The notes: generated by a model not told the origin, from the sequence alone. A stretch of 64,000 nt of DNA from Bacteroidota bacterium (GCA_029570835.1 JAKPTX010000117.1:17151-81150); one strand, 5' to 3'. Shown: positions 7,024 through 57,788, numbered from the stretch's first letter. Numbers and translations are program-made.

Positions 7024-7075
7024 TTCCAGAGTGGGGAAATAAAATAACTAAAAAGGAAAGCCTTGTCTGCCCCCC
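7024..7075 (+). repeat. Bipartite motif TTCCAGAGTGGGG-N30-CTGCCCCCC, copy 1
   Basis: Spacer 7037-7066 is 30 nt; followed by a T-tract. Confidence 0.9.
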
Positions 7076-7136
7076 TTTTTTTGAAGGTAGAAATAAGAAG
7101 GAAGAAGGTAGAATTAAAGGCGGAAATCGGAATGAA

Positions 7137-7293
7137 CAATTACGAATTACGAATTACGAAACCGAAAATTTTAATTGAACGCGATTATTGTAGGGACAGG
7201 TCGCGACCTGTCCTGGAGTAATGAATAAAAATAACGTCATGGTCATAGAGATAGGGCATGCCCTGTCTCCATGATGTTGTTATGCAACAGATT
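7137..7293 (+). repeat. 157-bp dispersed repeat, copy 1 (heptamers plus two REP-like palindromes)
   Basis: Three mismatches versus 9702-9858; partial third copy from 14641. Confidence 0.92.
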
Positions 7294-7457
7294 AATTTTT
7301 GTGTCAAATATTTGATATTCAACATTTTTATGGAATCATTAATTCAATTTTTAATTTATGTGTTTGGTTGTACCGCCTGTCCGCCTTCTTTTTATTCGTA
7401 ATTGTTTCTGTATCTTTGCCGTTCAATTAGACGTTGTGTATAATTAAATTAAAAATC

Positions 7458-8180
7458 ATGAGAAATTTTAAATTATTAGCTGTAATGCTTTTAGGAGTGG
7501 TATTTGCTGTTTCATCTTGTAAAAAGGATGATGACCCTGATCAGACCCAAATACCAAAAGATGGTTTAGTTGCATATTATCCATTCAATGGAAATGCAAA
7601 GGATTTAAGCGGCAAAGGAAATCACGGAACTGTTCATGGTGATGTAGTATTAACAACTGACAGAAAAGGAAATAGTAATAGTGCATACGATTTCCCGGGG
7701 GTTGCATTCAATTATATCAGTGTTCCTCATAATCCATCATTAGCATTAGATGTTTTTACAATTAATGCCTGGATTTTTACAAAGACAGACTATGGATATG
7801 GTCAAGTAGTTCAAAAAAACAGAGATATTTTCGGTGGGCATTACGGTCTTTACACCAACTGTGTTATTGGAAAAATAGACTATGAAAATGATGTTCAAGC
7901 CTCATCTCCGGAAAACCCAAGTATTGGAAAATGGCATATGATCACAGGTTCTGTTTCAGGAAAAAAAGCAAAATTTTACATTGATGGAGTATTAATGGAT
8001 GAGTCCATAGCAACCGATAAGTTTGTTTATTCAGGTTCTGATGATTTAGCTATTGGAATGCACTATTATGAAGGTGTTCCGGATCATTGGACATATCCAT
8101 ACAAAGGCAAAATTGACGATATTAGAATATATAACAGAGTACTGAGCGATAAAGAAATTCAAGCCCTCTATAATGAGTAA
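7458..8180 (+). CDS. LamG/concanavalin-A-like domain lipoprotein
   Basis: Lipobox AVSSC; GLVAYYPFNGNA and GKIDDIRIYNRVLS LamG motifs; start placed at ATG 7458. Confidence 0.85.
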   Translation: MRNFKLLAVMLLGVVFAVSSCKKDDDPDQTQIPKDGLVAYYPFNGNAKDLSGKGNHGTVHGDVVLTTDRKGNSNSAYDFPGVAFNYISVPHNPSLALDVFTINAWIFTKTDYGYGQVVQKNRDIFGGHYGLYTNCVIGKIDYENDVQASSPENPSIGKWHMITGSVSGKKAKFYIDGVLMDESIATDKFVYSGSDDLAIGMHYYEGVPDHWTYPYKGKIDDIRIYNRVLSDKEIQALYNE

Positions 8181-8237
8181 ATCAATATCTATTTCACATT
8201 TTTAGTCACAATTGATTCAACTTAAACCTCAACAACC

Positions 8238-8960
8238 ATGATCAGAGTTCTGCTTTTTTTGCAATTATTACTTTTTATTTCCTGTGGTGGACAGCATATG
8301 AAGTACCAAACATCCACTTATGATGATTCGGAATTTGAAAGTTTTGTGAATTCTCAACAGGAAAAGCTTCGGGAACTTGACAAGGCAGAAGTTTTTAGAT
8401 CCATCCATGCAAAATTGTTCACCGCGTTACCCGAAGAACATCAAAATTATTTCACAACAAAACCTGATTACAGACTGCTTAGCTTCGCTAAAGGAGATCT
8501 GTTTTTAAATCAAAAACAAGACTTTGCATTGGTTGTGTACGATGCAAAAAATGTAAGGATTTCAATCCTGGTGATTGATGAAAATAGAAACCGATACAAT
8601 GAACTTTTCAGGGATATAAAAGTTGAAAATGGCTTGGAAAATGTGGAGTGCCATTACCATTCTTCAAGGACTCCCGACTACCAAATTGGTGATGAAATTG
8701 TATATCAGGCTCATTCTCTGATGGAAAACCCGGAAGAATTCCTTGACTTCACTTTGTGTAAGATAACACCCATTTCTAAAGATGAAAGTTTTATCACAGA
8801 TGAGGGATGCTTTTCGATGAATGAGAAAAAAGAGGAATTACTCAATATCAATTCATTATCTGTATCGACAAGTTTTGTGTACAACAACTGGGAATCTCTG
8901 AAATATGACAAAAAGAGAGAGCTGTTTACAATATTTTATGGTCAGGCGTTTGCGGACTAA
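8238..8960 (+). CDS. Hypothetical lipoprotein
   Basis: Signal peptide with FISC lipobox; 240-aa ORF. Confidence 0.75.
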   Translation: MIRVLLFLQLLLFISCGGQHMKYQTSTYDDSEFESFVNSQQEKLRELDKAEVFRSIHAKLFTALPEEHQNYFTTKPDYRLLSFAKGDLFLNQKQDFALVVYDAKNVRISILVIDENRNRYNELFRDIKVENGLENVECHYHSSRTPDYQIGDEIVYQAHSLMENPEEFLDFTLCKITPISKDESFITDEGCFSMNEKKEELLNINSLSVSTSFVYNNWESLKYDKKRELFTIFYGQAFAD

Positions 8961-9062
8961 CATTTTAAAGGTAGAAGGTAGAAGGTAGAAGGCAGAATTA
9001 AAGGCGGAAGGCGGAAGGCGGAAGGCGGAATGAATAAATTTAGAAATTAGAATTATTTAAAA
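8961..9062. repeat. Heptamer tandem arrays J2 (AAGGTAG x3 plus AAGGCAG; AAGGCGG x4)
   Basis: Directly visible at 8968-9030. Confidence 0.9.
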
Positions 9063-9680
9063 ATGAAAACATTATCACTCATCAATCTGTTTTTAATTAT
9101 TGCTTTGTTGGGATGCAATGCTCCTGCAACTGACAATGATCAAAATGATGCAATCATCCAAGAGAGCAATAGTGTCAAAAAAATCGGGGAGGCAAATGGA
9201 GATTCCGGCAAAATTTTAAGTGCTGACAAAGTTGCCATCGGGATGACCATTGACGAGCTTAAAAAAGCATATCCCAATGCGAAATTTATTGAAGAACCTC
9301 TTTATATGTACGGGATTGATAGTGAAGAGTCCGGATTGCTTGTGGTGAACAATAATGAAAAATTACTTTTTGTGTGGGTATCAGAAGATGGTCATATAAA
9401 AGGAATTACAATCTTATCCCCTTCCATTGTAATCGACTCCAATGTTTCTGTCGGCATGAGCTTTCAGGAGTTTCTTAAAAAGTATCCCGATACCCAATTG
9501 ACTGTTAGTCTGGTTGATGAAGGTGTTGAATATTATCACGTAAAAGATAAAAATTACATCATAGAATTTTTGACAAAACCTGATAATAGAGTCGGCGAAT
9601 ATGAGGAGGAAGGCGTGGAAGCCAAATCAATCCGAATTGCAAGACCTAACGCAAAAATTGATAGAATCACGATGAATTGA
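9063..9680 (+). CDS. Hypothetical lipoprotein
   Basis: LLGC lipobox; internal repeat IGMTIDELKKAYP / VGMSFQEFLKKYP. Confidence 0.78.
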   Translation: MKTLSLINLFLIIALLGCNAPATDNDQNDAIIQESNSVKKIGEANGDSGKILSADKVAIGMTIDELKKAYPNAKFIEEPLYMYGIDSEESGLLVVNNNEKLLFVWVSEDGHIKGITILSPSIVIDSNVSVGMSFQEFLKKYPDTQLTVSLVDEGVEYYHVKDKNYIIEFLTKPDNRVGEYEEEGVEAKSIRIARPNAKIDRITMN

Positions 9681-10153
9681 TTTCGGATTTCGGATGGAAT
9701 CCAATTACGAATTACGAATTACGAAACCGAAAATTTTAATTGAACGCGATTATTGTAGGGACAGGTCGCGACCTGTCCTGGAGTAATGAATAAAAATAAC
9801 GTCATGGTCGTAGAGACAGGGCATGCCCTGTCTCCATGATGTTGTTGTGCAACAGATTTATTTTTATGATATATGTTTGACATTCAAGGATTTACGAAGT
9901 TGACAATTTAAATAAAACGCAATTGTAGGGGCAGGGCTTGTCCCTGCCCTTTTCCAGAGTGGGGTGATAAAATAACAAAAGTGCGAAATATGATCTGCCC
10001 CCCATTTTTTTGAAGGCAGAAATAAGAAGGAAGAAGGTAGAATTAAAGGCGGAATTAAAAAAATTCCGCCTTCCGCCTTTTTTCGATTCGTAATTCGTAA
10101 TTCGTAATTGATTTGTATTTTTGCAAATTAAATCAACTAACCGGTGTGATAGT
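9681..10153. repeat. Composite intergenic mosaic J3
   Basis: ATTTCGG x2; 157-bp repeat 9702-9858; REP-like 9925-9949; bipartite motif 9952-10003; TTCCGCC and TCGTAAT arrays; -7 box 10116-10123. Confidence 0.9.
9952..10003 (+). repeat. Bipartite motif, copy 2
   Basis: Spacer 9965-9994 is 30 nt. Confidence 0.9.
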
Positions 10154-11542
10154 ATGAATATTTCAAAATCAAGATTCATTGAAAGTCAAAATTGTCCGAA
10201 AATATTGTGGTTAAACTTGAACCGTATTGAAGAAAAGGCAGAAGAGACTGAAAGTCAAATTGTTCGGATGAATATCGGAACTTCGGTGGGTGTCCTGGCA
10301 CGGGAATATTTTGGGGAGTATGAATTGGTGGACTTTCCGTATGATGAATATTCCAATAAACTCTCGAAAACACAGGAATTGCTGGAAAAAGATACTGAAA
10401 TTATTGCCGAAGCTACCTTTCTGACTGATGGAATTTGCTGTAGCGTCGATATTTTACGGAAAACTGAAAAGGGTTATGATTTGATAGAAGTGAAAAGTGT
10501 CAATAATCTGAAAGGGTATTATCACTACGATATTGCGTTTCAGTATCACGTCCTCAAAAGTTGCGGATTGAACATTGAACACGCCTACCTCATGCACCTC
10601 AACGGAGATTATGTGCGGTGGGGAGAGTTGGATTTACAGCAGCTTTTCAAATTGGATGATGTAACGGATTCTGTTATAGCAAAAAATGCAGAGATTACAG
10701 ATACAGTTAAAATACTGCAAGAAGTTGCAGCTCAGGAACTTGAACCTGAAATTGAAATGGGTAGTCAGTGTGAAAATTTTGTATATGGAGGATATTGTCC
10801 CTATTATGATTATTGCCATCAAAATGAAGAGATTCCCGAAGAGGTTGCAGTTGAAAAGTTTGAGAGAATCGACAAAGATGAGATTGCCAACTTCCTGGAA
10901 AAGTTTTCATATCCAATCTATTTCCTTGATTTTGAGACCTATATGGCGGTAATTCCACCATACGACGGACTCAAGCCTTCGGGACAAACACCTTTTCAAT
11001 ATTCATTACATATTTTACACGAAAATGGAGAATTGGAGCATAAAGAGTATCTTGGATATCCCGATAGTGACCCGCGCGTTGGGTTAATCAAACAGATTTG
11101 TGATGATATTCCTCTAAACGCCTGTGTTGTAGCATATTTTATTCCGTTTGAACGAACTCGCCTGAAAGAATTGGCCTATTTTGCAGAAAACAGGAATGAT
11201 TTGCAACATTATGCGGAGCATTTGAACAATATCTGGGAGAATATGATCGATTTGATTGTGCCTTTCAAAAAAAAATACTACGAAAATGAGGCAATGGAAG
11301 GGCGTTCCAGTATCAAATTGGTGTTGCCTGCCCTCTTCCCCGATGACCCCGAATTGAATTACCATAATCTTGAAGGAGTTCAAAACGGAACGGATGCGAT
11401 GACTATTTATCCTTTGTTAACAACCGACAATTACACCCCTGAAGAGATCGAAGTAAAACGCCAACAACTTCTAAATTACTGCAAATTAGACACTTACGCC
11501 ATGGTGAAGATTTTCCAAAAACTCATTCATGTCATCTCTTGA
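10154..11542 (+). CDS. DUF2779-type protein: Cas4-like PD-(D/E)xK domain fused to a DnaQ/RNase H-like domain
   Basis: ISKSRF..QNCPK, VDIL..LIEVK, DIAFQY, Cys cluster CENFVYGGYCPYYDYC, then FLDFET and YCKLDT; ATG at 10154. Confidence 0.75.
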   Translation: MNISKSRFIESQNCPKILWLNLNRIEEKAEETESQIVRMNIGTSVGVLAREYFGEYELVDFPYDEYSNKLSKTQELLEKDTEIIAEATFLTDGICCSVDILRKTEKGYDLIEVKSVNNLKGYYHYDIAFQYHVLKSCGLNIEHAYLMHLNGDYVRWGELDLQQLFKLDDVTDSVIAKNAEITDTVKILQEVAAQELEPEIEMGSQCENFVYGGYCPYYDYCHQNEEIPEEVAVEKFERIDKDEIANFLEKFSYPIYFLDFETYMAVIPPYDGLKPSGQTPFQYSLHILHENGELEHKEYLGYPDSDPRVGLIKQICDDIPLNACVVAYFIPFERTRLKELAYFAENRNDLQHYAEHLNNIWENMIDLIVPFKKKYYENEAMEGRSSIKLVLPALFPDDPELNYHNLEGVQNGTDAMTIYPLLTTDNYTPEEIEVKRQQLLNYCKLDTYAMVKIFQKLIHVIS

Positions 11543-11564
11543 ACAATTAGTAAAATATCTGAAA

Positions 11565-12395
11565 ATGAAACAATTATCATATCTATTGCTGGCTTTGTTT
11601 ATTTTGACGAGTTGCTCAAATAACAAAGTATCAACTTCTAATCAAGTTGACAATTTAAAACAACACTTTATTCCCATCCTCAACGGGGTTTGGGTTTTGA
11701 CGGATTACATCGAAGAAATTGAAAAAACGCAATCACCTTTAAAGGCATCCGATAAATTAAATGGTATCGTTGCTATGGATATTGATGAAAATATGCAATC
11801 GGATACTATTTTTGTCGGAATCAGTATCAACAATCATGAAGGGTACAACTTTACGACTTATTTTGTGCAAGGACAAAACTCAACCAGCCTGAAAACTAAC
11901 ATTCCGGATTACGATGAAGAGAGTAATTATTTTGAATTGGGTTATGAAACCGGGAATAATCAAACCTTTTTAGTTCTTTATCACTACAACAAAAACAATC
12001 AACTGATTGACAAAAAAGAGTTTACGAAAGTCTCTGACAAAGTACAAAATAGTGATGTTTCCCGAGGATTGCAATATATCGTAAACAAGAAATTATTCTC
12101 AGGCAATTATCTATCGATTGACAGCAAAAACTCCACCGGAAAAGTCAAATTCAACAGTGACGGCTCTTTGACCGGCTTCCCGGACTTCAAAACTTATTAT
12201 GTGATAACCGATTTTTTGGGAGGACCCGTGGCTACTTTTGACGAAATTATATTCAATTTATACGAAGAAAACTCAAAAGGTTTCGCTTTCAAAATCGATG
12301 GTGACACAACATTTTTATACAGCACAACCGGTGATGAGGATAAAGGAGAACCTCTGCAAATTGATAAAGTACAATATAGACTTGCGAGACAATGA
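11565..12395 (+). CDS. Hypothetical lipoprotein
   Basis: MKQLSYLLLALFILTSC lipobox from ATG 11565. Confidence 0.78.
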   Translation: MKQLSYLLLALFILTSCSNNKVSTSNQVDNLKQHFIPILNGVWVLTDYIEEIEKTQSPLKASDKLNGIVAMDIDENMQSDTIFVGISINNHEGYNFTTYFVQGQNSTSLKTNIPDYDEESNYFELGYETGNNQTFLVLYHYNKNNQLIDKKEFTKVSDKVQNSDVSRGLQYIVNKKLFSGNYLSIDSKNSTGKVKFNSDGSLTGFPDFKTYYVITDFLGGPVATFDEIIFNLYEENSKGFAFKIDGDTTFLYSTTGDEDKGEPLQIDKVQYRLARQ

Positions 12396-12402
12396 TCCAA
12401 CA

Positions 12403-12852
12403 ATGAAAAACATAAAAAAAATATTTCACAGGCTCAGTTATCTGCAATATCCTTTGCTGTTGGCAGCCTTTTATTTCCTTATAAAGCCACTATTCAAAGG
12501 ATTTGATTACCTTTCTGCAAATCCTGAATATCTTTTCAATACATACAGTAATGCACTCATACTATTTGGAGTAACCCTTAGTTTTTCAGCTCTGCAAGAC
12601 CCTTCCAGAACATCGCTGCGGTTTGAAAAGAAAATTTGGGAAAATCCCAAAAAAGCGAAACTGCTTTTAAGTATCACCCTGATCACTACTCTCATCTTTT
12701 TTACGGCAGGATTACTTGGATTTTGGATGTCCGGCAGTTCTCAAAAGGAGTTTGCTTTGGGTTCCATAGTATTAGGCATCGGACTTTTAGGCTATTTGAA
12801 ATTTCAAATAGAACTGTTTGAAACTCACAAAGGAAAAGCATCAGAGGAATAA
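12403..12852 (+). CDS. Hypothetical 4-TM membrane protein
   Basis: ATG 12403 follows the upstream stop; four hydrophobic segments. Confidence 0.72.
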   Translation: MKNIKKIFHRLSYLQYPLLLAAFYFLIKPLFKGFDYLSANPEYLFNTYSNALILFGVTLSFSALQDPSRTSLRFEKKIWENPKKAKLLLSITLITTLIFFTAGLLGFWMSGSSQKEFALGSIVLGIGLLGYLKFQIELFETHKGKASEE

Positions 12853-13291
12853 GGATCTTAACGAAGGCGGAGGGCGGAAGGCGGAATCCAATTACGAATT
12901 ACGTTTTGAACTATCACGGAATCAATTCTAAATTCTAAATTCTAATTTCTAAATTTACAATCATGTCACCCCTACGGGGTTATTTGGGCTCTTGGGGTCA
13001 ACATTTTGCTACAATCATGTCACCCCTACGGGGTTATTTAAAAGTCGGAAGGCGAAAGTTTTTGCTATAAATTGAAAATGGTTAAACATCTAATTTATTT
13101 CATTGATATTCAAATAATTCCGAAATCCGAAATCCGAAATTATGTTTATTCCGCCTTCCGCCCTCCGCCTTCCGCCTTTTTTCGATTCGTAATTCGTAAT
13201 TCGTAATTGTTTGGTATTTTTGTAACCAAAAGGGAATTGGTGTTGTCTTATGGGTACAAATAGATTATTCACTTAACAAAAAAACAAAATT
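12853..13291. repeat. Composite intergenic mosaic J4
   Basis: GGCGGAA array at 12863-12886 with its inverted copy at 13149-13172; TTCTAAA array; two 30-bp direct repeats 12956-12985 and 13010-13039; TCCGAAA x3; TCGTAAT x3. Confidence 0.9.
13215..13248 (+). promoter_or_regulatory. Overlapping housekeeping -7 box (TATTTTTG) and putative ECF-sigma promoter (TGTAAC...GTCT)
   Basis: TATTTTTG 13215-13222; TGTAAC 13221-13226; GTCT 13245-13248, directly upstream of an ECF sigma operon. Confidence 0.55.
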
Positions 13292-13678
13292 ATGTTAGTA
13301 GCAGTTATCGCTATTATTTGCGTTGTCGGTTTACCGATAGGATTTGGAATGTATTTGGGGTTAACAGCCATTAGAGCTGAACACAAAGAACGTATGAATT
13401 TGATTAATCAAGGTATTATTCCTCCGGAAAAAATTAAAAGAAAAGCCACTCCCAATCAATTTGTATCACTTCGGAATGGAATTGTTCTCGTTGCACTCGG
13501 AATCGGAATTATTCTAGGATTTTTATGTTCTGAAAAGATGGCTATACCTCAATACAATAAATTTTGGATTATTGCCGCAAGTATCGTGTTCTTTCTCGGA
13601 TTAGGCTATTTGAGCTACTTTTTGATTACACGAAAAATGCCTGATGCACAACAAAAAGAGGAAGTAAAACAAGAATAA
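13292..13678 (+). CDS. DUF6249-like membrane protein
   Basis: TM-KERMNLINQG-...-LRNGIVLVALGIG-TM pattern; first gene of the ECF operon. Confidence 0.7.
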   Translation: MLVAVIAIICVVGLPIGFGMYLGLTAIRAEHKERMNLINQGIIPPEKIKRKATPNQFVSLRNGIVLVALGIGIILGFLCSEKMAIPQYNKFWIIAASIVFFLGLGYLSYFLITRKMPDAQQKEEVKQE

Positions 13679-13688
13679 TCCGCTTTGA

Positions 13689-14255
13689 ATGAACGAAAAA
13701 GAGCAAATACAGCAAGTGCTTTCGGGCAACACGTTCGCATTCAGCTATTTTGTTGAAACCTATCAAGATATGGCGATGACAATCGCCTATCGCATTTGTA
13801 GAAACAGGCAAAACGCGGAGGATATAGTGCAGGATAGTTTTGTAAAAGCATACCGCTACTTACACACTTTCAGAAGTGATGCCAAATTTTCGTCCTGGTT
13901 TTATCGCATTGTTTACAATACAGCAGTTTCGTACACTAAAACAAAAATGTGGGTCAACGATTCTGACATAGAACTCACAGAAATTCAGGAAGAAAATGTC
14001 GACTACAATATAGAAACTCAGATTCTTGCCACTGAACGAACTGAAATAGTGCAAAACGTGTTAAATCAAATGCAGAAAGGTGATGCGTTGCTGCTTACTT
14101 TGTATTATATGGAAGATAACTCGATCAAAGATATTGTAAAAATTACAGGACTCAACGAATCCAATGTAAAAGTGAAACTATTTCGTGCCCGAAACCGATT
14201 TAAAGAGATGATTCTCAAATCAAATGAGTTGAAACTCATTGTATCCACAAAATAA
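13689..14255 (+). CDS. ECF RNA polymerase sigma-70 factor
   Basis: AEDIVQDSFVKAY, FSSWFYRI, region 4 SNVKVKLFRARNRFK. Confidence 0.93.
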   Translation: MNEKEQIQQVLSGNTFAFSYFVETYQDMAMTIAYRICRNRQNAEDIVQDSFVKAYRYLHTFRSDAKFSSWFYRIVYNTAVSYTKTKMWVNDSDIELTEIQEENVDYNIETQILATERTEIVQNVLNQMQKGDALLLTLYYMEDNSIKDIVKITGLNESNVKVKLFRARNRFKEMILKSNELKLIVSTK

Positions 14256-14266
14256 AAACCAAAACG

Positions 14267-14635
14267 ATGAACAAGAAAAATAACATAGATCCCGAAGATG
14301 AATTGATCCGCCAATTGATGCGGTCAGCAAAAGAACAGGCACCTGAAAATTTGAAATACCGGATTATGCAACAGATTAATACTGAAAATGCATTAACCCC
14401 AAAACCCGCTCCAATAAAAAAACGGACAGAAAATGTACTGAGAGATTTTATTGGTATTTTTGGCACCATGTACGCTTTGCTGGCATTACTCACCGGTATC
14501 GCATATCTGTCGAAAGATGAAAATTTTTTGCTGTCGCCTGAATTTATAGGTGTTGTGCTGTTGGTCACTGTGGTTGCCTCAACATTTTGGTTTTTTACGC
14601 GATTGGATGAAAAAATTCGACAAAAACAGAAATAG
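14267..14635 (+). CDS. Putative membrane anti-sigma factor
   Basis: Directly follows the ECF sigma; APENLKYRIMQQI motif plus two C-terminal TM helices. Confidence 0.7.
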   Translation: MNKKNNIDPEDELIRQLMRSAKEQAPENLKYRIMQQINTENALTPKPAPIKKRTENVLRDFIGIFGTMYALLALLTGIAYLSKDENFLLSPEFIGVVLLVTVVASTFWFFTRLDEKIRQKQK

Positions 14636-15086
14636 GAAAAATTACGAATTACGAAACCGAAAATTTTAATTGAACGCGATTATTGAAGGGACAGGTCGCG
14701 ACCTGTCCTAGAATAATGAATAAAAATAACGTCATGGTCGTAGAGACAGGGCTTGTCCCTGCCCTTTTCCAGAGTGGGGAAACAACCACCCCGCCCTTCG
14801 GGCACCCCTCCTTCCCGAGGAGGGGAGTTGAAATAACCAGAGAGTGATGCCTATTCTGCCCCCCATTTTTTTATTTCCAAAATAATATATATAATTAAAT
14901 ATCAACGGGTTATATTAAATAAAGACCTCAACACCAAAATTCCGAAATCCGAAATCCGAAATCCGAAATTATGTTTGAATCCGCCCTCCGCCTTCAAGAA
15001 ATTCTAAATTCTAAAATCTAAATTCTAAATTTTTAATGTATATTTGTTGCGTGAATTAGATAGCGGACAACCATAAAACAAACCCA
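14636..15086. repeat. Composite intergenic mosaic J5
   Basis: Truncated 157-bp repeat from 14641; chimeric REP 14740-14764; interrupted bipartite motif 14767-14864; IHF-consensus 14900-14912; TCCGAAA x4; TTCTAAA array; -7 box 15039-15046. Confidence 0.9.
14767..14864 (+). repeat. Bipartite motif, copy 3, carrying a 46-nt hairpin insertion
   Basis: Removing 14784-14829 restores a 30-nt spacer. Confidence 0.8.
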
Positions 15087-17209: not shown

Positions 17210-17567
17210 ACTTTACCAATCAGCGCCTTCATACTTCTTATTTTTTCCTTATTTTTGAAATAAAAATAAAAAGGGGGATTTTGATTTCGGATTTCGGATT
17301 TCGGATTTCGGAAGTTAGCATTGCGCATTTTATTATATAACCCATTGATTTTTAATTATATATATTATTTTGAAATAAAAAATAAAAGGGGGCAGAATAG
17401 GTATCACTATGTTGATATTCCGTTTCCCCACTCTGGAATCGTAGAGACGCAACGCATTGCGTCTCTACAGCCGATTTAGAGGTCAGGTTTGTTCATCGTA
17501 ATTCGTAATTCGTAATTCGTAATTCGTAATTCGTAATTGGATTTCGACTTTCGACTTTATTATAGCT
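17210..17567. repeat. Composite intergenic mosaic J7 (largely an inverted counterpart of J5)
   Basis: ATTTCGG x4; IHF-consensus 17338-17350; bipartite motif on the minus strand 17388-17438; REP-like 17441-17468; TCGTAAT x6 17496-17537; TTTCGAC x2. Confidence 0.9.
17388..17438 (-). repeat. Bipartite motif, copy 4
   Basis: GGGGGCAG-N30 (17396-17425)-CCCCACTCTGGAA. Confidence 0.9.
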
Positions 17568-18020: not shown

Positions 18021-18142
18021 ACAATACTCAAACTTTAATCGTGAACTTAACAAATAAACGCCCAAAGATATCAATTATTTTTGTGTAAAACTTTGGTCAT
18101 ATTATATTTTTTTACGATATTTGCATATTAAACATTGCACTA

Positions 18143-19905: not shown

Positions 19906-19922
19906 TCCCTTTATCGCCCGTT

Positions 19923-21742: not shown

Positions 21743-22050
21743 TTATTCTGATTTTTCTGTTTTTATTTTGGAAAAAAAAAGGGGGGCAGATCATATTTCG
21801 CTATTTCGTCAATTCTTTACCCCACTCTAGAATATCTGACCTTTTAGGATATTCTTGATCAATTACGAATTACGAATTACGAATTACGGAATCTTAAATT
21901 TAGAATTTAGAACCCCAACCCCGACATAAATTTCTGGTCTATTGATATGAATACCAATGTGATATGTATAAAAATTAGCTCAATTCCGAAATCCGAAATC
22001 CGAATTCATTCTGACTTTCGCCTTTCGACTTTCGAAATGTCCGTTGATAA
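21743..22050. repeat. Composite intergenic mosaic J8 (no cargo gene)
   Basis: Bipartite motif on the minus strand 21781-21832; AATTACG x4; TTTAGAA x2; TCCGAAA x3; CTTTCGA-type array. Confidence 0.88.
21781..21832 (-). repeat. Bipartite motif, copy 5
   Basis: GGGGGGCAG-N30 (21790-21819)-CCCCACTCTAGAA (one mismatch). Confidence 0.88.
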
Positions 22051-22053
22051 CGA

Positions 22054-45315: not shown

Positions 45316-45350
45316 TTTAGTTTATTACTTTTCTTTTGGAAATAAAAAAA

Positions 45351-45378
45351 AGGGGGGGACGCAAATTCCCCCCTCTTT
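45351..45378. terminator. Likely bidirectional terminator between upp and gcvP
   Basis: A-tract, GGGGGGA-loop-TCCCCCC, then T-rich tail. Confidence 0.6.
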
Positions 45379-45384
45379 GATTCT

Positions 45385-48249
45385 TTATTCGTAGTAATCT
45401 TCACAACTACACATTAAGTTCCTGTCCCCATGAGCTTCGTTCACTTTACTTACTGTTGGCCAATATTTTTCAGTGTGTGGCTGTGGGAATGCTGCTCTTT
45501 GACGAGTATAAGGTCTTGTCCACTCATCGGCACAAATCACTTGCATGGTGTGTGGAGCATTCTTGATTAAGTTGTTCTCACGATCTGCTTTACCCTCTTC
45601 AATCTCTCTGATCTCCTCACGGATTGAGATGAGGGCATCACATAATCTGTCTATTTCACTTAGTGGTTCACTTTCAGTAGGCTCAATCATCAATGTTCCA
45701 TGTACCGGGAATGCCACTGTTGGAGCGTGGAAACCGTAGTCCATCAAACGTTTCGCAATATCTCCTACCAGAACACCTGCTGTCTTATCAAACTCATTGC
45801 AATCGATAATAAATTCATGAGCGCACATACCTTTCTCACCGGTGTACAAAATAGGATAATGATCTTGTAAACGCACTCTCATATAGTTGGCATTTAATAT
45901 GGCCATCTCAGTAGCTGACTTCAATCCGGGACCACCTAACATTTTCAGATAACCGTAAGTGGTGGGTAATGCTGCCGGACTACCATAAGGAGCTGCAGAA
46001 ACCTGACTTCCATGAGTTCCACCGGTTGGTACCAACACGTGGTTAGGTAGGAAATCCACTAAATGTTCAGCCACACCGATAGGTCCAATTCCGGGACCAC
46101 CACCACCGTGAGGAATCGCAAAAGTTTTATGCAGATTCAAGTGACAAACATCAGCTCCCATGTAGCCTGGGGAGGTTAAGCCTACCTGAGCATTCATGTT
46201 AGCTCCGTCCATATAAACTTGTCCGCCATTTTCGTGAATAATATTGATAATCTCTAAGATTGCTTCTTCAAACACCCCGTGAGTTGATGGATAAGTTACC
46301 ATCAAGCAGGAAAGTTTATCTCTGTGTTCTACCGCTTTAGCTCTCAAGTCTTCCACGTCAATCTCCCCTTTATCAGTAGATTTCACGATTACAATATCCA
46401 AACCGGCTTTAGCAGCTGATGCAGGATTAGTACCGTGAGCAGAAGCAGGAATCAAACAAACAGTTCTGTGTCCCTCTCCTTTACTAATTTGATAGTTACG
46501 GATCGTGGTTAAACCGGCATACTCTCCGGCAGCCCCCGAATTAGGTTGGAAAGAGATCGCTTTGAAGCCCGTAATTAAACTCAACCACTCATCCATCTCC
46601 TCAATCATTTCCATAAAGCCTTCTGCTTGATCAAGCGGAGCAAATGGGTGAATAGCTCCCACTTCTGTCCAGGTTAATGGGAATACCTCAGCAGCTGCGT
46701 TCAACTTCATGGTACAAGATCCAAGAGGAATCATTGCTCTGTTTAAAGAAAGATCCTTCACCTCAAGCAGTTTCATATATCTCATCATTTCTGTCTCAGA
46801 GTGATATTTGTGGAACACTTCGTGAGTCATAAAATCAGAGGTACGATGTAAAGATTCAGGAATATGCAATGCCGGAACACAATTACCGGTGCAAACATAA
46901 GGCTTATGCTCTTTATTAACAGCTTTTGCCAACACTTCCAAAATCTCATTCACATCCTCTAACAATACAGTTTCATCCAATGAGATAGTTAAACACTCAT
47001 CGCACCAGTAGTAGAAGTTGATTTGATGTTCTAGTGCTACCTTTTTAACTTGTTCTGTATTAAACCCTTGTGGAACCTGCAAGCAAACTGTATCGAAAAA
47101 GTTTTGATTGTGTTGTTTATATCCCAATTTTTCAGCTTCGTTAGCCAAAATACCGGTCAAAACATTAATTTTTGTTGCTTTATCTTTCAATCCTTTTGGA
47201 CCATGCCACAATGCGTAAAATCCGGCTGATATAGCAGAAAGTACAGATGCGGTACAGATATTGGAGGTTGCTCTTTCTCTCTTGATATGTTGCTCTCTGG
47301 TTTGAAGTGCCATTCTCAACGCTTTATTTCCTTGTGCGTCAATGGTTACTCCGATAATTCTACCGGGCATCTGCCTCTTCATGCTCTCATTACAAGCAAA
47401 GTAACCTGCATGAGGTCCACCAAAGCCCATTGTAGCTCCAAAACGTTGGGTATTCCCTACCACACCATCAGCACCCCATTCTCCCGGAGGAGTTAAAAGA
47501 GTCAGAGCCAAAAGATCAGCAGCAACTCCTACGAAAATTCCTTTTTCTTTGGCATCTTTAACAAATGAGGTATAATCAACAACTCGTCCCCAACTACCGG
47601 GATATTGAAGCATCAAACCAAAGTAAGTATTATCCAATGTGGTTTTAAACGGATCACCTGAAACTACCTCAATACCTTGTGGTCTGGCATTTGTTTTGAT
47701 CACCTCTAAAGTTTGAGGGAAAAGGTCTTCAGCTACAAAAAATTTGTTTACGTTGTTTTTAACCATGTCACGAGGTCTGCTGTTGAAAAACATCAACATC
47801 AACTCAGCCGCAGATGTTGCCTCATCCAGCATAGATGCGTTTGCCAAATCCATTCCGGTTAAATCGCATAACATGGTTTGATAATTCAATAATGCTTCCA
47901 AACGCCCTTGGGCAATCTCCGCCTGATAGGGAGTATAAGCCGTGTACCATCCGGGATTTTCAGTAATATTTCTCTGAATTACAGCGGGAGTATAGGAATT
48001 GTAATAACCCATTCCTATATAGGATTTATAAATCTTATTTTTGGCAAACAATGCTCTTACATGTTTTAAATAAACCCCTTCGGTCATCCCTTCGGGAAGA
48101 GGAAGATCCTCTTTGAAACGAATTGCAGCAGGAACAGTTTGTTCAATCAACTCCTCCATACTGTTCACTCCGATTCTTTTCAACATCACGTCCACCTCTT
48201 CCGGAGTTGGCCCATTATGTCTGTCCTTAAAGTCGTCTTTAATAATCAT
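45385..48249 (-). CDS. gcvP: Glycine dehydrogenase (aminomethyl-transferring)
   Basis: YTPYQAEIAQGRLE, TSNICT, PLGSCTMK, LNLHKTF; start at ATG 48249. Confidence 0.97.
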   Translation of the reverse strand: MIIKDDFKDRHNGPTPEEVDVMLKRIGVNSMEELIEQTVPAAIRFKEDLPLPEGMTEGVYLKHVRALFAKNKIYKSYIGMGYYNSYTPAVIQRNITENPGWYTAYTPYQAEIAQGRLEALLNYQTMLCDLTGMDLANASMLDEATSAAELMLMFFNSRPRDMVKNNVNKFFVAEDLFPQTLEVIKTNARPQGIEVVSGDPFKTTLDNTYFGLMLQYPGSWGRVVDYTSFVKDAKEKGIFVGVAADLLALTLLTPPGEWGADGVVGNTQRFGATMGFGGPHAGYFACNESMKRQMPGRIIGVTIDAQGNKALRMALQTREQHIKRERATSNICTASVLSAISAGFYALWHGPKGLKDKATKINVLTGILANEAEKLGYKQHNQNFFDTVCLQVPQGFNTEQVKKVALEHQINFYYWCDECLTISLDETVLLEDVNEILEVLAKAVNKEHKPYVCTGNCVPALHIPESLHRTSDFMTHEVFHKYHSETEMMRYMKLLEVKDLSLNRAMIPLGSCTMKLNAAAEVFPLTWTEVGAIHPFAPLDQAEGFMEMIEEMDEWLSLITGFKAISFQPNSGAAGEYAGLTTIRNYQISKGEGHRTVCLIPASAHGTNPASAAKAGLDIVIVKSTDKGEIDVEDLRAKAVEHRDKLSCLMVTYPSTHGVFEEAILEIINIIHENGGQVYMDGANMNAQVGLTSPGYMGADVCHLNLHKTFAIPHGGGGPGIGPIGVAEHLVDFLPNHVLVPTGGTHGSQVSAAPYGSPAALPTTYGYLKMLGGPGLKSATEMAILNANYMRVRLQDHYPILYTGEKGMCAHEFIIDCNEFDKTAGVLVGDIAKRLMDYGFHAPTVAFPVHGTLMIEPTESEPLSEIDRLCDALISIREEIREIEEGKADRENNLIKNAPHTMQVICADEWTRPYTRQRAAFPQPHTEKYWPTVSKVNEAHGDRNLMCSCEDYYE

Positions 48250-48377
48250 ATACAATCTATATTTTACGTTAAACATCCGTTTGTTTCGGGAAAAACCCAA
48301 TCTGCAAAGATATAAAAAATAATTGTGTTATACCCTATTAGAGGAGATCATAAAAAAGTTGTATTTTTGCATTTTAT

Positions 48378-50970: not shown

Positions 50971-50989
50971 TCCGATAAAATCACTGCTT

Positions 50990-54856: not shown

Positions 54857-54928
54857 ATCTATATTATTTTTAAATTAATAAATTCAAGTATAACTTGCAA
54901 AGATATAAAAAAGTTCCAATATGCCTGA

Positions 54929-56074
54929 TTATAGTCGCAGAAACAGTTCGAAGCTAAAAAAATGGGCATCCCAATAACTCAAAACACGGGCATCCCAACT
55001 GTAGGGAATGAAGTGATAATTGATTTGCGCTCCCAAATAGGTGGATTTCATAATCGGAATTAGAGCAGAAATACCTAAAGCCGTGTAGAGTGTCATGGGA
55101 TAATAATAGTTCACCTCATCTACGCCAAACGTTTCATAAATTGAAGTATAAATCCAGTCCACTCCCAACCCGGCTTGCGGATAGATTAAAAGTGAACGAG
55201 TAGCTGTTAATGGAATTTGAGTGCTGCGATACCCCAAATGAAATCCAGCAGTAGAAAGTACATTGGGTTTAACCTCAAAGTATTGCTGCATTGCTTCAAA
55301 ATTGAGTATATCGTACCGATAGGGAAAGCGAAACGACAAAAACCCATCAAAAAGCCACCGTTTGGCTAAAGGAGAAGAAAAACCTATTCGTACTGTTTGC
55401 GCATAGCCGACCTGAGTTGCAATGCCGATCTGCCGCATCAAACCCAATCCCACTACAAAACCCGGATATTGATCCCGCTCCTTCCGGAACTCATTGCGCA
55501 TATAACGCCCAATAGTGCTTTTCCTGTATTTTCTTTTTATCGATTTGGATTCAAAAAGATCAATATCACCCGAAAAGAGCGTCAGAATTAATTCCTCATC
55601 TTGTTGATATTGAGATGTTTCCAGTAGTTCTCCCGCATTCTTTTGGAGAATAGAATCCAGTGGGGACCTGAGGGGAAGATAGCCGTAATATGTTTTATTG
55701 ACATCGTAATAATTATAATAGTCCGATTCCCGGGCATCCTGCATACGGTTATAAAACTGCTCATAGTAGCCCATATCAAAGTAAGAGGAGACAGCCCAAT
55801 CGACAGGTTGCTGATGGATCAATTCATACATCATCAAAGTGCGCAATGTCGGTTCATGGTAACCGCAGGAGTCGATCCAAAGATCCAGGGTAGGGAAAAA
55901 GTTATCCCACTGCCGATGGTGAAACTGGAGTTGCAGGTGCGACGCCACTTGCGGGGTAATCCGAATTGCCCGTGCAGAATCAAAATCGCTCTGCGTAGTG
56001 TCCGCAGGCGGAGGCGTTCCTCCCCATACGGTTACACTCCAAAAAAGCACCCAAATCAAACTAACCCGACGCAT
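54929..56074 (-). CDS. Hypothetical exported protein with a probable C-terminal beta-barrel
   Basis: Signal peptide from ATG 56074; amphipathic C-terminal strands. Confidence 0.65.
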   Translation of the reverse strand: MRRVSLIWVLFWSVTVWGGTPPPADTTQSDFDSARAIRITPQVASHLQLQFHHRQWDNFFPTLDLWIDSCGYHEPTLRTLMMYELIHQQPVDWAVSSYFDMGYYEQFYNRMQDARESDYYNYYDVNKTYYGYLPLRSPLDSILQKNAGELLETSQYQQDEELILTLFSGDIDLFESKSIKRKYRKSTIGRYMRNEFRKERDQYPGFVVGLGLMRQIGIATQVGYAQTVRIGFSSPLAKRWLFDGFLSFRFPYRYDILNFEAMQQYFEVKPNVLSTAGFHLGYRSTQIPLTATRSLLIYPQAGLGVDWIYTSIYETFGVDEVNYYYPMTLYTALGISALIPIMKSTYLGAQINYHFIPYSWDARVLSYWDAHFFSFELFLRL

Positions 56075-56886
56075 TAGAATTTTTTTGCAAAGATATAACA
56101 AAAAGGTAGAAGATAGAAGGTAGATGGCGGAATGATTTCGGATTTCGGATTTCGGATTTCGGAATCAAAATTTAGAATTTAGAATTTAGAATTACTTAAT
56201 TATCAAGCATTTAGAAATATATTTCTTTCATATTTTTAATTTCTTTCTTTTTTTTGAAATAAAAATAAAAGGGGGGCAGGAAACCCTTCACAATCTTGTT
56301 ATTTCTTCACCCCACTCTGGAATATTAGACCTTTTAGGATATGCAGGATCAATTACGATTTTACAAGGTAGAAGGTAGAAGGTAGAAGGTAGAAGGTTCA
56401 CTCGGGGTGCGACTTCAAGTTATGAACCGAGTAGGGAGTTACACGAGTAGTAGTCGCGCCCCGAGTAGCCTAATTTAAAAAAACTTTCGACTTTCGACTT
56501 TCGACTTTCGACTTCAAAATAACCCCGAAGGGGTGACATGATTGTAAATTTAGAATTTTAAAATTTGACGATAATTTTATTTAACTGCTTGATATTCAAT
56601 CATATAAATTGCCACGTCTCTTTAGGGCGTGGATAGGAATAACCCCCGGAACACAAGGGCTTTAGCCCAAATTTACAAAATATGAAGTAAGAAATAAGAA
56701 ATATGAAATAAAGAGAATGTAGATCATAACACCTTGATAATCAAGTTTTAAATCCGAAATCATTCCGACTTTTAAATAGTCCCGAAGTGGTGATAGGATT
56801 AAAATTTTTGAATTATTGATAGTGTTTTATTGTGCAAAGGTTGAATTAAAAAACGAGTTAGAGATATTTCAGCCTTATAAGTTCAG
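56075..56886. repeat. Composite intergenic mosaic J9
   Basis: ATTTCGG x4, TTTAGAA x3, bipartite motif 56271-56322, AAGGTAG x4, inverted repeat 56400-56466, CTTTCGA x4, 30-bp hairpin repeat 56517-56546, palindromes 56609-56670, three IHF-consensus sites. Confidence 0.9.
56271..56322 (-). repeat. Bipartite motif, copy 6
   Basis: GGGGGGCAG-N30 (56280-56309)-CCCCACTCTGGAA. Confidence 0.9.
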
Positions 56887-57330
56887 TTACTTCAAATACT
56901 CAATTTTATACAGATGAAAATCTTTTCCCTTTATTTTATACCGACGAGATTTTCTTTTCTTTATTTTAGACTTTAAGTAATATTTACACTTATCAGTCTT
57001 AATTATTATAAAATTCATGTGATGATATCTGAACGGAATTGAAAAAGGAATTATTATTTTAGTTTTTCCTTTTTTTTCCAAAATGGAACGCAAACAGCTC
57101 CTGCTCGTGGAATAATCCTTATAATAAAAAGTATCAGGCTTACAAGAAGGAGTAATAATTAATGTGTCATAATCTAGCGAATACTCAATATATTCCAGTT
57201 GTATAGAGGTGGTTGTATCTAAAATTTCTGAATAAAAAATGAATCTATTATTAATTAATCCAATCTGCCCAAAAAAAGTACTAGGCAATACCATAAAAAA
57301 TATTACAAATAAAACCTTTATTTTATTCAT
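56887..57330 (-). CDS. AT-rich orphan exported protein with a basic C-terminus
   Basis: MNKIKVLFVIFFMVLPSTFFGQ signal peptide; TATCTTTG promoter box on the minus strand near 57377-57384. Confidence 0.6.
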   Translation of the reverse strand: MNKIKVLFVIFFMVLPSTFFGQIGLINNRFIFYSEILDTTTSIQLEYIEYSLDYDTLIITPSCKPDTFYYKDYSTSRSCLRSILEKKGKTKIIIPFSIPFRYHHMNFIIIKTDKCKYYLKSKIKKRKSRRYKIKGKDFHLYKIEYLK

Positions 57331-57788
57331 GATCCTGTCCACTCCTTTCTTTTATATCTTTTGGAAATTGATTTTGCAAAGATAAAAATAAAAGGCGGAA
57401 GGCGAAAGGCGAAAATTCAATTACGAATTACGAATTAGACCTCCCCTAGCCCCTCCTTTGGAGGGGAACAATCGATAAAAACAATGAAAAAGGTCATAAA
57501 AATGGCTGTAGAGACGCAATGCTTTGCGTCTCTCGACCGTATGCGATCAAAAATTTATTACCCCGAAATTTGTGTCGTTTTCAAAAAGGTATGATTTCCA
57601 GAGTGGGGTGATGAAATAACCTATAAAGAAAGTTTTATCTGCCCCCCATTTATTTTTATTTCAAAAATAAGAAGATAGAAATTAGCATTATTATTCAGGT
57701 ATTTCGACTTCGCTTAATGAACGGAATCTTAAGGTTATATTCCAAAAAAATATGTACTTTTGCCCTTATGAATTTAAATATATAAAAG
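57331..57788. repeat. Composite intergenic mosaic J10
   Basis: AAGGCGG/AAGGCGA and AATTACG arrays; CCCCTCC-TTT-GGAGGGG hairpin 57439-57467; REP-like 57508-57533; bipartite motif 57596-57647. Confidence 0.88.
57596..57647 (+). repeat. Bipartite motif, copy 7
   Basis: TTCCAGAGTGGGG-N30 (57609-57638)-CTGCCCCCC. Confidence 0.9.

What the first reader, a model, noticed from the sequence alone, without database searches (positions are those of the whole stretch)
7024..57647. Dispersed bipartite element with an invariant 30-nt spacer: TTCCAGAGTGGGG-N30-CTGCCCCC-(T-tract), seven copies
Seen at 7024(+), 9952(+), 14767(+, interrupted), 17388(-), 21781(-), 56271(-) and 57596(+). The arms are almost invariant (one mismatch). 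The spacer is exactly 30 nt in every copy but divergent in sequence: AAATAAAATAACTAAAAAGGAAAGCCTTGT; TGATAAAATAACAAAAGTGCGAAATATGAT; AAAC^GAAATAACCAGAGAGTGATGCCTATT; AAACGGAATATCAACATAGTGATACCTATT; TAAAGAATTGACGAAATAGCGAAATATGAT; TGAAGAAATAACAAGATTGTGAAGGGTTTC; TGATGAAATAACCTATAAAGAAAGTTTTAT. A weak AAATAAC core sits at positions 6-12. Four copies are preceded by AAAAGGT-N5-6; the other three abut a GTAG palindrome. Conserved length without conserved sequence (about 3 helical turns) suggests selection on geometry. Inference: a two-site protein-binding or recombination site, a mobile-element end, or a small structured RNA with a variable loop. I do not recognise it as a named element.
Basis: partly seen in the sequence, partly recalled or inferred. 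Interest (0 to 1): 0.85.

Follow-up and report, generated by a model that had tools for sequence, protein, structure and literature searches.

The report
Lineage-specific mosaic intergenic repeat family
The seven sites belong to a very abundant short repeat found between genes in one narrow group of uncultured Bacteroidales, with two G/C-rich boxes around an A-rich middle that is swapped between copies; it is a new repeat family, not a folded RNA.

Summary
All seven window sites exist. The genome holds 146 copies of GAGTGGGG-N(26-34)-CTGCCCCC, against 2 and 5 in two motif controls.

- The spacer is not invariant: 30 nt in 98 copies, 31 in 26, 29 in 16, 32 in 3, other in 3.
- The spacer is not sequence-free. 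It has an A-rich consensus with eight positions at 82-96%.

No RNA or ssDNA fold is supported, and Rfam has no hit.

The element is the core of a roughly 115-nt module (head, core, T-rich tail). These modules sit at the outer borders of mosaic intergenic islands, tails pointing outward. Neighbours under 1.5 kb apart are 18 head-to-head, 0 tail-to-tail and 1 tandem.

The family is abundant only in this genome and one close relative among 101 family genomes searched.

Between near-identical strains the spacer, head and tail are exchanged as cassettes, with junctions at the boxes. The boxes themselves never changed (0 of 240 positions, against 29 of 452 in the spacer).

Best reading: a new BIME/NIME-like, recombination-driven repeat family built on a terminator-like G-run/C-run/T-tract scaffold. 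No enzyme was identified and transcription was not tested.

The parts
7024..7074 (+). Copy 1 of the core (TTCCA-GAGTGGGG, 30-nt spacer, CTGCCCCC). The head AAAAAGGTATAATT lies just upstream; the tail is a T-run followed by GAAGGTA-type heptamers.
   Evidence: Exact match; flanks; model R1 hit 7013-7082, 70.1 bits.
6993..7000 (+). Orphan right box CTGCCCCC followed by ATTATTTCC, 24 nt upstream of copy 1. Likely a remnant of an adjacent unit.
   Evidence: sequence shown.
9952..10002 (+). Copy 2 of the core, directly preceded by a GTAG-headed hairpin.
   Evidence: R1 hit of 63.2 bits.
9925..9949 (+). GTAG-headed palindrome (REP-like hairpin) abutting copy 2. The same hairpin type abuts the left box at the same junction in about 10 genome copies.
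   Evidence: genome list.
14767..14863 (+). Copy 3 of the core, interrupted after spacer position 4.
   Evidence: R1 splits it into 14764-14784 and 14812-14876.
14784..14829 (+). 46-nt G+C-rich nested insert with two small hairpins. It has 9 copies in the genome, 7 of them nested in copies of this element.
   Evidence: fold.
14740..14764 (+). GTAG-headed palindrome abutting copy 3.
17388..17438 (-). Copy 4 of the core. At the orthologous site in the close relative G002 both boxes and both flanks are kept, but 16 of the 30 spacer positions differ.
   Evidence: alignment (pair 3).
17441..17468 (-). Second type of GTAG-headed palindrome, abutting copy 4 on its head side.
21782..21832 (-). Copy 5 of the core, with one mismatch in the variable first five bases of the left arm.
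   Evidence: R1 hit of 60.1 bits.
56272..56322 (-). Copy 6 of the core. It forms a head-to-head pair with copy 7, 1.27 kb apart.
   Evidence: R1 hit of 70.7 bits.
57596..57646 (+). Copy 7 of the core.
   Evidence: R1 hit of 67.3 bits.
45336..45386 (-). Not a family member. This is a canonical short-loop terminator-like hairpin (G-run, 7-nt loop, C-run, T-run, then ATTTCCAAA) right after the stop of the ORF at 45385-48300(-). It shows the native scaffold that the boxes and tail resemble.
   Evidence: R1 partial hit; sequence; genome survey.

Best explanation
The seven sites are copies of the core of a new, lineage-restricted, non-coding dispersed repeat family in an uncultured Bacteroidales lineage.

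Structure of one unit (about 115 nt):
- A head, in several interchangeable types: a (CGTAATT)n-GATC..CATATC-AAAAGG block, or one of two GTAG hairpins.
- A core: GAGTGGGG, then a 29-32-nt A-rich spacer with its own consensus, then CTGCCCCC(C).
- A T-rich tail.

Placement. Units sit at the outer edges of mosaic intergenic islands made of heptamer arrays and small hairpin repeats. Their tails point outward to the flanking genes, so that two units bracket an island as a long imperfect inverted repeat.

Resemblance. The two boxes plus the tail look like the G-run, C-run and T-tract of this genome's short-loop terminators, but with a 33-nt loop.

How it evolves (inferred). The family spreads and is reshuffled mainly by exchange between copies and between strains. 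This could be gene conversion, template switching or a still unknown site-specific enzyme. The junctions fall at the invariant boxes, so spacer, head and tail behave as swappable cassettes. The boxes stay unchanged at each locus, either through selection on a local function or through constant homogenisation.

Shown here: abundance, anatomy, orientation rule, lineage restriction, lack of fold, cassette replacement, box invariance.
Inferred: the exchange mechanism, and any host function such as weak outward-facing termination or insulation.
For: Abundance and chance:
- 146 copies in 2.92 Mb, against 2 and 5 for the reversed and swapped motif controls.
- 0 expected in the window.

Intergenic location (crude ORF calls):
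- 12 of 146 copies lie inside an ORF.
- Copies occupy 34 of 79 convergent, 17 of 112 divergent and 63 of 330 co-directional spacers (chi-square p=3.5e-6).

Orientation rule:
- Neighbours under 600 nt apart: 15 head-to-head, 0 tail-to-tail, 1 tandem.
- Neighbours under 1500 nt apart: 18, 0 and 1. Orientation is random at larger distances.

Lineage restriction:
- The exact pattern occurs in 2 of 41 relatives: G000 with 72 copies and G002 with 70.
- With the sequence model, 2 of 101 family genomes saturate the hit cap and one has a single good copy. The other 5 genomes of the same genus have none.
- 0 hits in viral contigs and 0 in plasmids.

Cassette exchange:
- Of 49 orthologous site groups, 22 show a replaced spacer. 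This includes 3 of 17 pairs whose tail-side anchor is >=99% identical.
- In one pair, 110 nt of head and 76 nt of tail are 100% identical while the spacer is 14 of 30 identical.
- Window copy 17388 shows the same pattern against G002.
- Other pairs keep the spacer but have swapped head or tail exactly at the boxes (pairs 22, 44, 47).
- Identical 30-nt spacers sit at different loci with different heads and tails.
- 5 of 15 replaced alleles from other strains have a >=94% identical copy at another G000 locus.

Box constraint:
- In 15 site groups that kept their spacer, the boxes differ at 0 of 240 positions.
- The spacer differs at 29 of 452 and the first five arm bases at 4 of 75. Anchor divergence is 5.0% (Fisher p=3.8e-6).

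Terminator resemblance:
- Of 276 C-run+T-tract sites in the genome, 92 have a GGGG 31-34 nt upstream, which is this family.
- Short-loop sites with the same tail exist, for example window 45336-45386.
Against: - No transposase or recombinase co-occurs with the family. Y1_Tnp and IS110-type genes are present in G000 but were not found in G002, which is 98% complete and has about as many copies. The G000 Y1 gene is flanked by a different repeat.
- No target-site duplication or clean empty site was seen in the 5 presence/absence cases examined. Those indels are whole composite blocks with ambiguous AT-rich ends.
- Boxes of 8-13 nt are short for RecA-type recombination, so the proposed exchange mechanism is unproven.
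- Invariant boxes at orthologous loci are not what purely selfish, decaying repeats predict. They hint at a host-level or protein-binding function that I could not identify.
- The box test carries some ascertainment bias, because copies were found by their boxes with at most 1 mismatch each.
- The orthologous sites come from MAG and metagenome contigs of unknown strain relationships. Some pairs may be paralogues.
Confidence: 0.55

Rival explanations
1. Outward-facing intrinsic terminator or insulator module. GGGG pairs with CCCC and is followed by a U-tract, stopping transcripts that leave the repeat islands or that come from upstream co-oriented genes. The spacer is a tolerated large loop.
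For: - The box-plus-tail anatomy matches the G-run/C-run/T-tract of short-loop terminator-like sites in the same genome, including the ATTTCCAAA tail.
- Tails always face outward from the islands.
- Copies are enriched at convergent gene ends.
- 74 of 120 head-side gene ends are 3' ends.
- In a subset of copies an internal GGGGC..G block pairs with CTGCCCC to give a proper short hairpin (loop-11 class).
- Invariant boxes at orthologous sites fit a locus-level function.
Against: - The consensus stem is only 4 bp with a 33-nt loop. RNAalifold gives -4.3 kcal/mol.
- Single copies fold no better than shuffles, with z from -1.5 to +0.9.
- The terminator scan called 1 of 5 elements in 6500-22500, and that call was on the opposite strand.
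- In co-directional spacers both orientations occur: 29 same and 21 opposite in the strict set.
- 72 of 128 tail-side gene ends are 3' ends, which meet the element in antisense.
- The median distance from the head-side gene is 257 nt.
- A terminator role does not explain the sequence-specific GAGT and CTG, or the head.
Confidence: 0.18
2. Dispersed recognition site for a dedicated site-specific recombinase or other two-domain DNA-binding protein. The two boxes, about three helical turns apart, are bound and cut or exchanged, giving programmed cassette swapping. This is the mechanism that Bentley et al. hypothesised for dRS3 in neisserial NIME arrays.
For: - Junctions of exchanged segments coincide with the boxes at many independent sites.
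- Spacer length is held to 29-32 nt.
- Boxes are invariant while the spacer drifts at the neutral rate.
- The same spacer types are found at different loci in different strains.
- The G+C pattern (G/C-rich boxes, A/T-rich spacer) parallels the NIME G+C wave described in PMC1797815 (passages read).
Against: - No candidate enzyme was found. The Y1 and IS110 families do not co-occur with the element, and other recombinase families were not tested.
- Mosaic joints also occur inside the spacer at its conserved mid-block. The 5' part carrying the nested insert is joined to three different 3' halves. That pattern fits homology-guided exchange better than cutting at fixed sites.
- Because the boxes are identical everywhere, any exchange would appear to end in them.
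Confidence: 0.12
3. Family of small RNA genes. A promoter in the head (TTGATC-N18-TATAAY) would start transcription near GAGUGGGG and the U-tract would end it. This would give ~55-65-nt RNAs with constant handles and a variable middle.
For: - Many heads read as a sigma-70-like -35/-10 pair placed so that a start would fall at the first invariant base (my reading of the sequences).
- The T-tract follows the C-run.
- The constant-variable-constant layout.
Against: - About a quarter of copies have a hairpin or other head with no such motif.
- The -10-like positions are only 37-68% conserved.
- Bacteroidetes housekeeping promoters are recalled to use TTTG/TAnnTTTG, which is absent here. This comes from recall, not a call.
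- The middle is not free. It has a family consensus and no fold.
- There is no Rfam hit.
- Expression could not be tested.
Confidence: 0.08

Closest known systems
Neisserial intergenic mosaic elements (NIME: dRS3 boxes flanking RS segments)
   Same: - Short conserved G/C-rich boxes flank families of A/T-richer variable segments.
- Both are intergenic, and syntenic sites differ between strains in repeat content.
- Recombination at the boxes has been proposed.
- Other small repeats nest in the arrays (passages of PMC1797815 read; here).
   Different: - There is no sequence similarity.
- dRS3 is a 20-bp unit with 6-bp terminal inverted repeats, used in long alternating arrays.
- Here the two boxes are different, occur once per unit, and are 29-32 nt apart.
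- The spacer here is one family with a consensus, not over 100 families of 50-150 bp.
- The phylum is different. The paper states that NIMEs had not been seen outside Neisseria.
REP / BIME / REPIN elements mobilised by RAYT (Y1) transposases
   Same: - High copy number and an extragenic location.
- A mosaic arrangement with other motifs.
- Inverted pairs.
- Lineage-specific families.
- GTAG-headed hairpins directly abut several copies.
   Different: - The element itself is not a palindrome and has no GTAG or CGTC tag.
- Inverted pairs have variable spacing of 24-498 nt, not a fixed REPIN spacing.
- The one full Y1 gene in G000 is flanked by another repeat, and G002 has none.
- The REP/RAYT papers were seen only as a search listing with abstracts.
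MITEs such as Correia elements
   Same: - Size class of roughly 100-150 nt.
- Abundance and an intergenic position.
- Two units can act as long inverted ends around variable content.
- Presence/absence polymorphism between close strains.
   Different: - There are no terminal inverted repeats within a unit.
- No target-site duplication was seen.
- No parent IS was found.
- Polymorphisms are replacements of blocks rather than clean insertions.
Intrinsic (Rho-independent) terminators
   Same: A G-run, a C-run and a T-tract, sharing their tail with canonical short-loop sites of the same genome.
   Different: A 4-bp consensus stem with a 33-nt loop, no fold signal, both orientations relative to genes, and strong sequence specificity outside the stem.

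Membership tests
REP/REPIN-RAYT | Unit is a 20-40-nt imperfect palindrome forming a stem-loop | tested here: not met
   Only the invariant GGGG:CCCC 4-bp stem is predicted on 138 copies. The spacer-shuffle z is 0.00 on both strands over 188 copies.
REP/REPIN-RAYT | GTAG or CGTC tag at one end of the palindrome | tested here: not met
   The core has no such tag. GTAG hairpins are separate neighbouring modules. The feature itself is taken from the abstract of PMC3733652 in the search listing.
REP/REPIN-RAYT | A cognate Y1 (RAYT) gene flanked by the same repeats | tested here: not met
   PF01797 gives 3 matches in G000, and the full one (C113) is flanked by a different repeat. G002 (98% complete) has no match although it holds about 70 exact copies.
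REP/REPIN-RAYT | Inverted doublets at a fixed spacing | tested here: not met
   There are 15 head-to-head pairs under 600 nt apart, but the inner distances range from 24 to 498 nt.
MITE | Terminal inverted repeats on each unit | tested here: not met
   The head and tail of a unit are unrelated. Only pairs of units are inverted relative to each other.
MITE | Target-site duplication at filled versus empty sites | tested here: inconclusive
   Five G002-present/G000-absent sites were aligned. The indels are composite blocks with AT-rich, ambiguous ends, and no duplication is evident.
MITE | A parent IS sharing the ends | tested here: inconclusive
   The 9 left-arm orphans are mostly inside ORFs, and the 84 right-box orphans are degenerate copies, another hairpin repeat or chance matches. 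No ORF bounded by the boxes was seen. The genome is in 277 contigs and ISfinder was not available.
NIME (dRS3/RS) | 20-bp dRS3 boxes with 6-bp terminal inverted repeats flanking RS segments, in arrays | tested here: not met
   The boxes differ from each other and from the dRS3 consensus quoted in PMC1797815. Each unit has one pair of boxes and there are no alternating arrays.
Intrinsic terminator | G+C-rich stem of 5 bp or more, loop of 3-8 nt, then a T-tract | tested here: not met
   The consensus has a 4-bp stem and a 33-nt loop. The scan flagged 1 of 5 elements in 6500-22500, on the opposite strand. A T-tract is present.
Any Rfam family | Covariance-model match | tested here: not met
   0 matches at gathering thresholds. 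At E<=5 there are 4 weak matches, none on an element.
Small RNA gene | A discrete transcript with defined 5' and 3' ends | not testable with these tools
   RNA runs holding the region were found only as contigs.

The most novel reading that the evidence does not exclude
The boxes are crossover or handle sites of a dedicated system that swaps about 30-nt cassettes among roughly 150 dispersed loci. One possibility is a site-specific recombinase acting as proposed for neisserial dRS3. Another is an RNA- or template-switch-based copying step that uses the G-run and C-run as primers. If so, this lineage maintains a programmed, box-delimited shuffling of intergenic cassettes, or a library of small RNAs with constant handles, which has not been described in Bacteroidota.
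Probability: 0.12. Interest if true: 0.8.

Novelty: new variant of a known kind. Interest (0 to 1): 0.45.

Why it matters
This is one of the densest short-repeat systems one could expect in a 2.9-Mb Bacteroidales genome. Intergenic DNA is built from interchangeable modules that turn over faster than point substitutions accumulate. In 3 of 17 site pairs with >=99% identical flanks the spacer is already replaced.

It offers a non-proteobacterial counterpart to BIME and NIME mosaics. It is also a natural case for asking how 8-13-nt boxes can direct precise cassette replacement, and why such boxes stay invariant.

In practice the family explains contig breaks in MAGs of this lineage. It could serve as a strain-typing marker in anaerobic digesters and wastewater communities. 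Those habitat words come from the run and record labels, not from laid reads.

If the boxes prove to be enzyme or RNA handles, the interest would be much higher.

Tried and rejected
Hypotheses tested and dropped:
- Structured RNA or ssDNA. I ran single-copy folds, column mutual information, spacer-shuffle z-scores and RNAalifold. All were negative.
- Coding peptide. The frame reads open across some 30-nt copies by eye, but spacer lengths of 29, 31 and 32 nt in 45 of 146 copies break the frame. I did not pursue it further.
- CRISPR-like unit. The boxes are too short and unlike each other, and the spacers share a consensus.
- DGR-like mutagenesis. Differences between replaced spacers are not confined to one base (read by eye).
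- Inversion of islands as the source of spacer swaps. At the one two-element site I compared (pairs 0 and 1), the new spacer is not the partner's spacer.
- Uptake-sequence-like signal. Copies are almost all intergenic.
- Bacteroidetes-type promoter in head or tail. I found no TAnnTTTG-like box by eye. That motif is recalled, not taken from a call.

Searches that found nothing:
- Known mobile DNA: viral contigs 0, plasmids 0, and in phages only a 42-nt AT-rich tail match.
- Enzyme link: PF01797 and PF01548 do not co-occur with the element.
- Literature string search for the boxes returned only unrelated eukaryotic papers (listing only).

Full report
**1. Observation**

- The pattern TTCCAGAGTGGGG-N(25-35)-CTGCCCCC matches five times in the window, always with N=30. 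No match occurred in 100 shuffles.
- The left arm with up to 2 mismatches gives seven sites.
- The sixth copy is 21782-21832(-), with one mismatch. The seventh is 14767-14863(+), split by a 46-nt G+C-rich insert at 14784-14829.
- All eight CTGCCCCC strings in the window belong to these seven copies or to an orphan box at 6993-7000, just before copy 1.

**2. Genome-wide picture**

- The window lies in a 2.92-Mb, 277-contig assembly with 37.7% G+C.
- With the invariant cores GAGTGGGG and CTGCCCCC (at most 1 mismatch each) there are 146 copies. Spacers are 30 nt (98 copies), 31 (26), 29 (16), 32 (3) and other (3). Reversed motifs give 2 matches and swapped order gives 5.
- The spacer has a clear A-rich consensus, with eight positions at 82-96%.
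- The first five bases of the left arm vary.
- Conservation continues into a head of about 30 nt and a T-rich tail of about 35-40 nt.

**3. Not a folded RNA**

- Mutual information over 129 distinct 30-nt copies shows no Watson-Crick covariation. The top pairs reflect subfamilies and a 7-nt periodicity in the flanks.
- Shuffling only the spacer changes nothing: mean z is 0.00 on both strands over 188 copies.
- RNAalifold on 138 copies keeps only GGGG:CCCC, which is invariant, with a covariation term of -0.01.
- Rfam gives no match at gathering thresholds and none on the elements at E<=5.

**4. Context and architecture**

- By crude ORF calls, 12 of 146 copies lie inside an ORF.
- The rest occupy 34 of 79 convergent, 17 of 112 divergent and 63 of 330 co-directional spacers longer than 150 nt.
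- The strongest regularity is orientation. Neighbours closer than 1.5 kb are 18 head-to-head, 0 tail-to-tail and 1 tandem.
- The 15 closest pairs bracket islands made of tandem heptamers, GTAG hairpins and small tetraloop-type hairpins. The T-rich tails face the flanking genes, and each island is a long imperfect palindrome.
- The window itself is full of such heptamer arrays.
- Copies 6 and 7 form such a pair, 1.27 kb apart.

**5. Distribution**

- The exact pattern occurs in 2 of 41 relatives, G000 and the same-genus G002, with 72 and 70 hits.
The other five same-genus genomes have none.
- Titled records holding the pattern are mostly MAGs labelled Bacteroidales.
- Many metagenome contigs hold it. 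Viral contigs, plasmids and phages do not.
- Other species of the genus carry quite different intergenic repeat arrays. The genus is repeat-prone and this family is one lineage's version.

**6. Turnover**

- G002 is about 93% identical to G000 over window 17065-21871.
- At the site of copy 4 the flanks and both boxes are conserved, but 16 of 30 spacer positions differ.
- I defined orthologous sites by a 300-nt anchor on the tail side, across G000, G002 loci and metagenome contigs, and scored spacers with gapped alignment. That gave 68 pairs in 49 site groups, of which 22 groups contain a replaced spacer (under 75% identity).

| Tail-anchor identity | Spacer kept | Spacer replaced |
|---|---|---|
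| >=99% | 14 | 3 |
| 95-99% | 14 | 15 |
| <95% | 11 | 11 |

- Replaced pairs are 42-71% identical (gapped), close to the roughly 51% ungapped mean for random family members.
- One pair has 110 nt of head and 76 nt of tail identical, with the spacer 14 of 30 identical.
- Another pair keeps a locus-specific 13-nt head segment plus both boxes between two replaced segments, although the flanks are 99% identical.
- Conversely, several sites keep the spacer but have a different head or tail starting exactly at a box.
- Identical spacers occur at different loci with different heads and tails.
- 5 of 15 foreign alleles at replaced sites have a >=94% identical copy elsewhere in G000.
- Presence/absence differences are whole composite blocks without visible target-site duplications.

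**7. Constraint on the boxes**

- In the 15 site groups that kept their spacer (anchors under 99.5% identical, mean divergence 5.0%), the two 8-nt boxes show 0 differences in 240 positions.
- The spacer shows 29 in 452 and the first five arm bases 4 in 75 (Fisher p=3.8e-6).
- The spacer therefore drifts at about the neutral rate while the boxes do not.
- Caveats: copies were found by their boxes, and two groups are non-family matches that contribute no differences.

**8. What the boxes resemble**

- Partial model hits in the window include a textbook-like hairpin at 45336-45386(-): a G-run, a 7-nt loop, a C-run, a T-run, then the same ATTTCCAAA tail, right after an ORF stop.
- Genome-wide there are 276 C-run+T-tract sites. 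Of these, 92 have a GGGG 31-34 nt upstream (this family), about 20 have loops of 5-15 nt (roughly half of them internal to family copies) and 152 have no G-run within 70 nt.
- The element looks like a terminator scaffold with a 33-nt loop.
- As a terminator it is poor: a 4-bp stem, no fold signal, both orientations relative to genes, and tails often facing gene 3' ends in antisense.

**9. Enzymes**

- Y1 (RAYT/IS200-type) and IS110-type genes are present in G000. Neither was found in G002, which has as many copies.
- The full Y1 gene of G000 is flanked by an unrelated repeat.
- No gene bounded by the boxes was seen.
- MAG assemblies often lose IS copies, so absence is weak evidence.

**10. Reading**

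- The best-supported account is a new, lineage-restricted mosaic intergenic repeat family. It works like BIME and NIME mosaics, with modules exchanged at short invariant G/C-rich boxes.
- The exchange mechanism is inferred. The candidates are template switching at the G-run and C-run, short-patch conversion, or an unknown site-specific enzyme.
- A host function for the boxes, such as weak outward termination or protein binding, is possible and would explain their invariance.
- The closest described analogue by logic is the neisserial NIME (passages read), whose authors noted it had not been seen outside Neisseria.
- Membership in REP/REPIN, MITE, NIME, terminator or any Rfam family fails on tested defining features.
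- No paper in the held library contains the box strings in a bacterial context. REP/RAYT papers were seen only as a listing, and PMC2884548 only as an outline.

**11. Limits**

- ISfinder and paper supplements were not available.
- Gene calls are crude ORFs.
- Orthology rests on MAG and metagenome contigs.

Noticed in passing
window 7138-7160, 8968-9030, 9703-9725, 10086-10109, 12863-13208, 14941-15031, 16550-16602, 17283-17312, 17496-17538, 21861-22004, 56134-56193, 56365-56514, 57391-57414: Intergenic DNA is packed with perfect tandem heptamer arrays of 3-6 copies. The recurrent units are AATTACG, AAGGTAG, AAGGCGG, TCCGAAA, AATTCTA and ACTTTCG. They are arranged symmetrically inside the repeat islands, and CGTAATT arrays typically lead straight into the element's head.
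   Followed up: partly
window 9925-9949, 14740-14764, 17441-17468, 57508-57535: Two types of GTAG-headed palindromes (REP-like). They abut the left box at a fixed junction in about 10 genome copies. No cognate Y1 gene flanked by them was found.
   Followed up: partly
window 14784-14829: A 46-nt G+C-rich double-hairpin mini-element with 9 copies in the genome, 7 of them nested in this family. In four of those the nested copy splits the left arm and supplies a strand complementary to it, turning the arm into a hairpin.
   Followed up: partly
G000 contigs C59, C55, C84, C104, C126, C208 (one search list): Another dispersed repeat, GACCTCCCC-CTGCCCCC-TCCGAAGGAGGGGG. This G/C hairpin contains the right-box string and accounts for about 10 of the right-box orphans.
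   Followed up: no
L080, L087, L089 (G004); L079 (G006): Other species of the same genus carry unrelated, very long intergenic tandem arrays (units of about 29-30 nt and about 60 nt). Some flank Y1 transposase genes. The genus as a whole seems unusually tolerant of intergenic repeats.
   Followed up: no
window 6123-6737 (+): An ORF with a full-length BglII-type restriction endonuclease domain (E=3e-28) lies next to copy 1. The ORF just upstream (5158-6123) was not examined.
   Followed up: no
G000 C62:171-602 (about 17 kb upstream of the window) and C60:985-1416: IS110-family (DEDD) transposase genes in the window's genome. No link to the element was found.
   Followed up: partly
G002 contigs C1, C29, C40 (element at 94-144 in each): Several contigs of the close relative begin with the same 93 nt followed by a copy of the element. 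Assemblies of this lineage therefore break at these repeat islands.
   Followed up: no
window 56887-57342 (-): A 151-aa ORF without any Pfam match lies between the head-to-head copies 6 and 7. It may be a spurious ORF inside a large island or a small island-borne gene.
   Followed up: no
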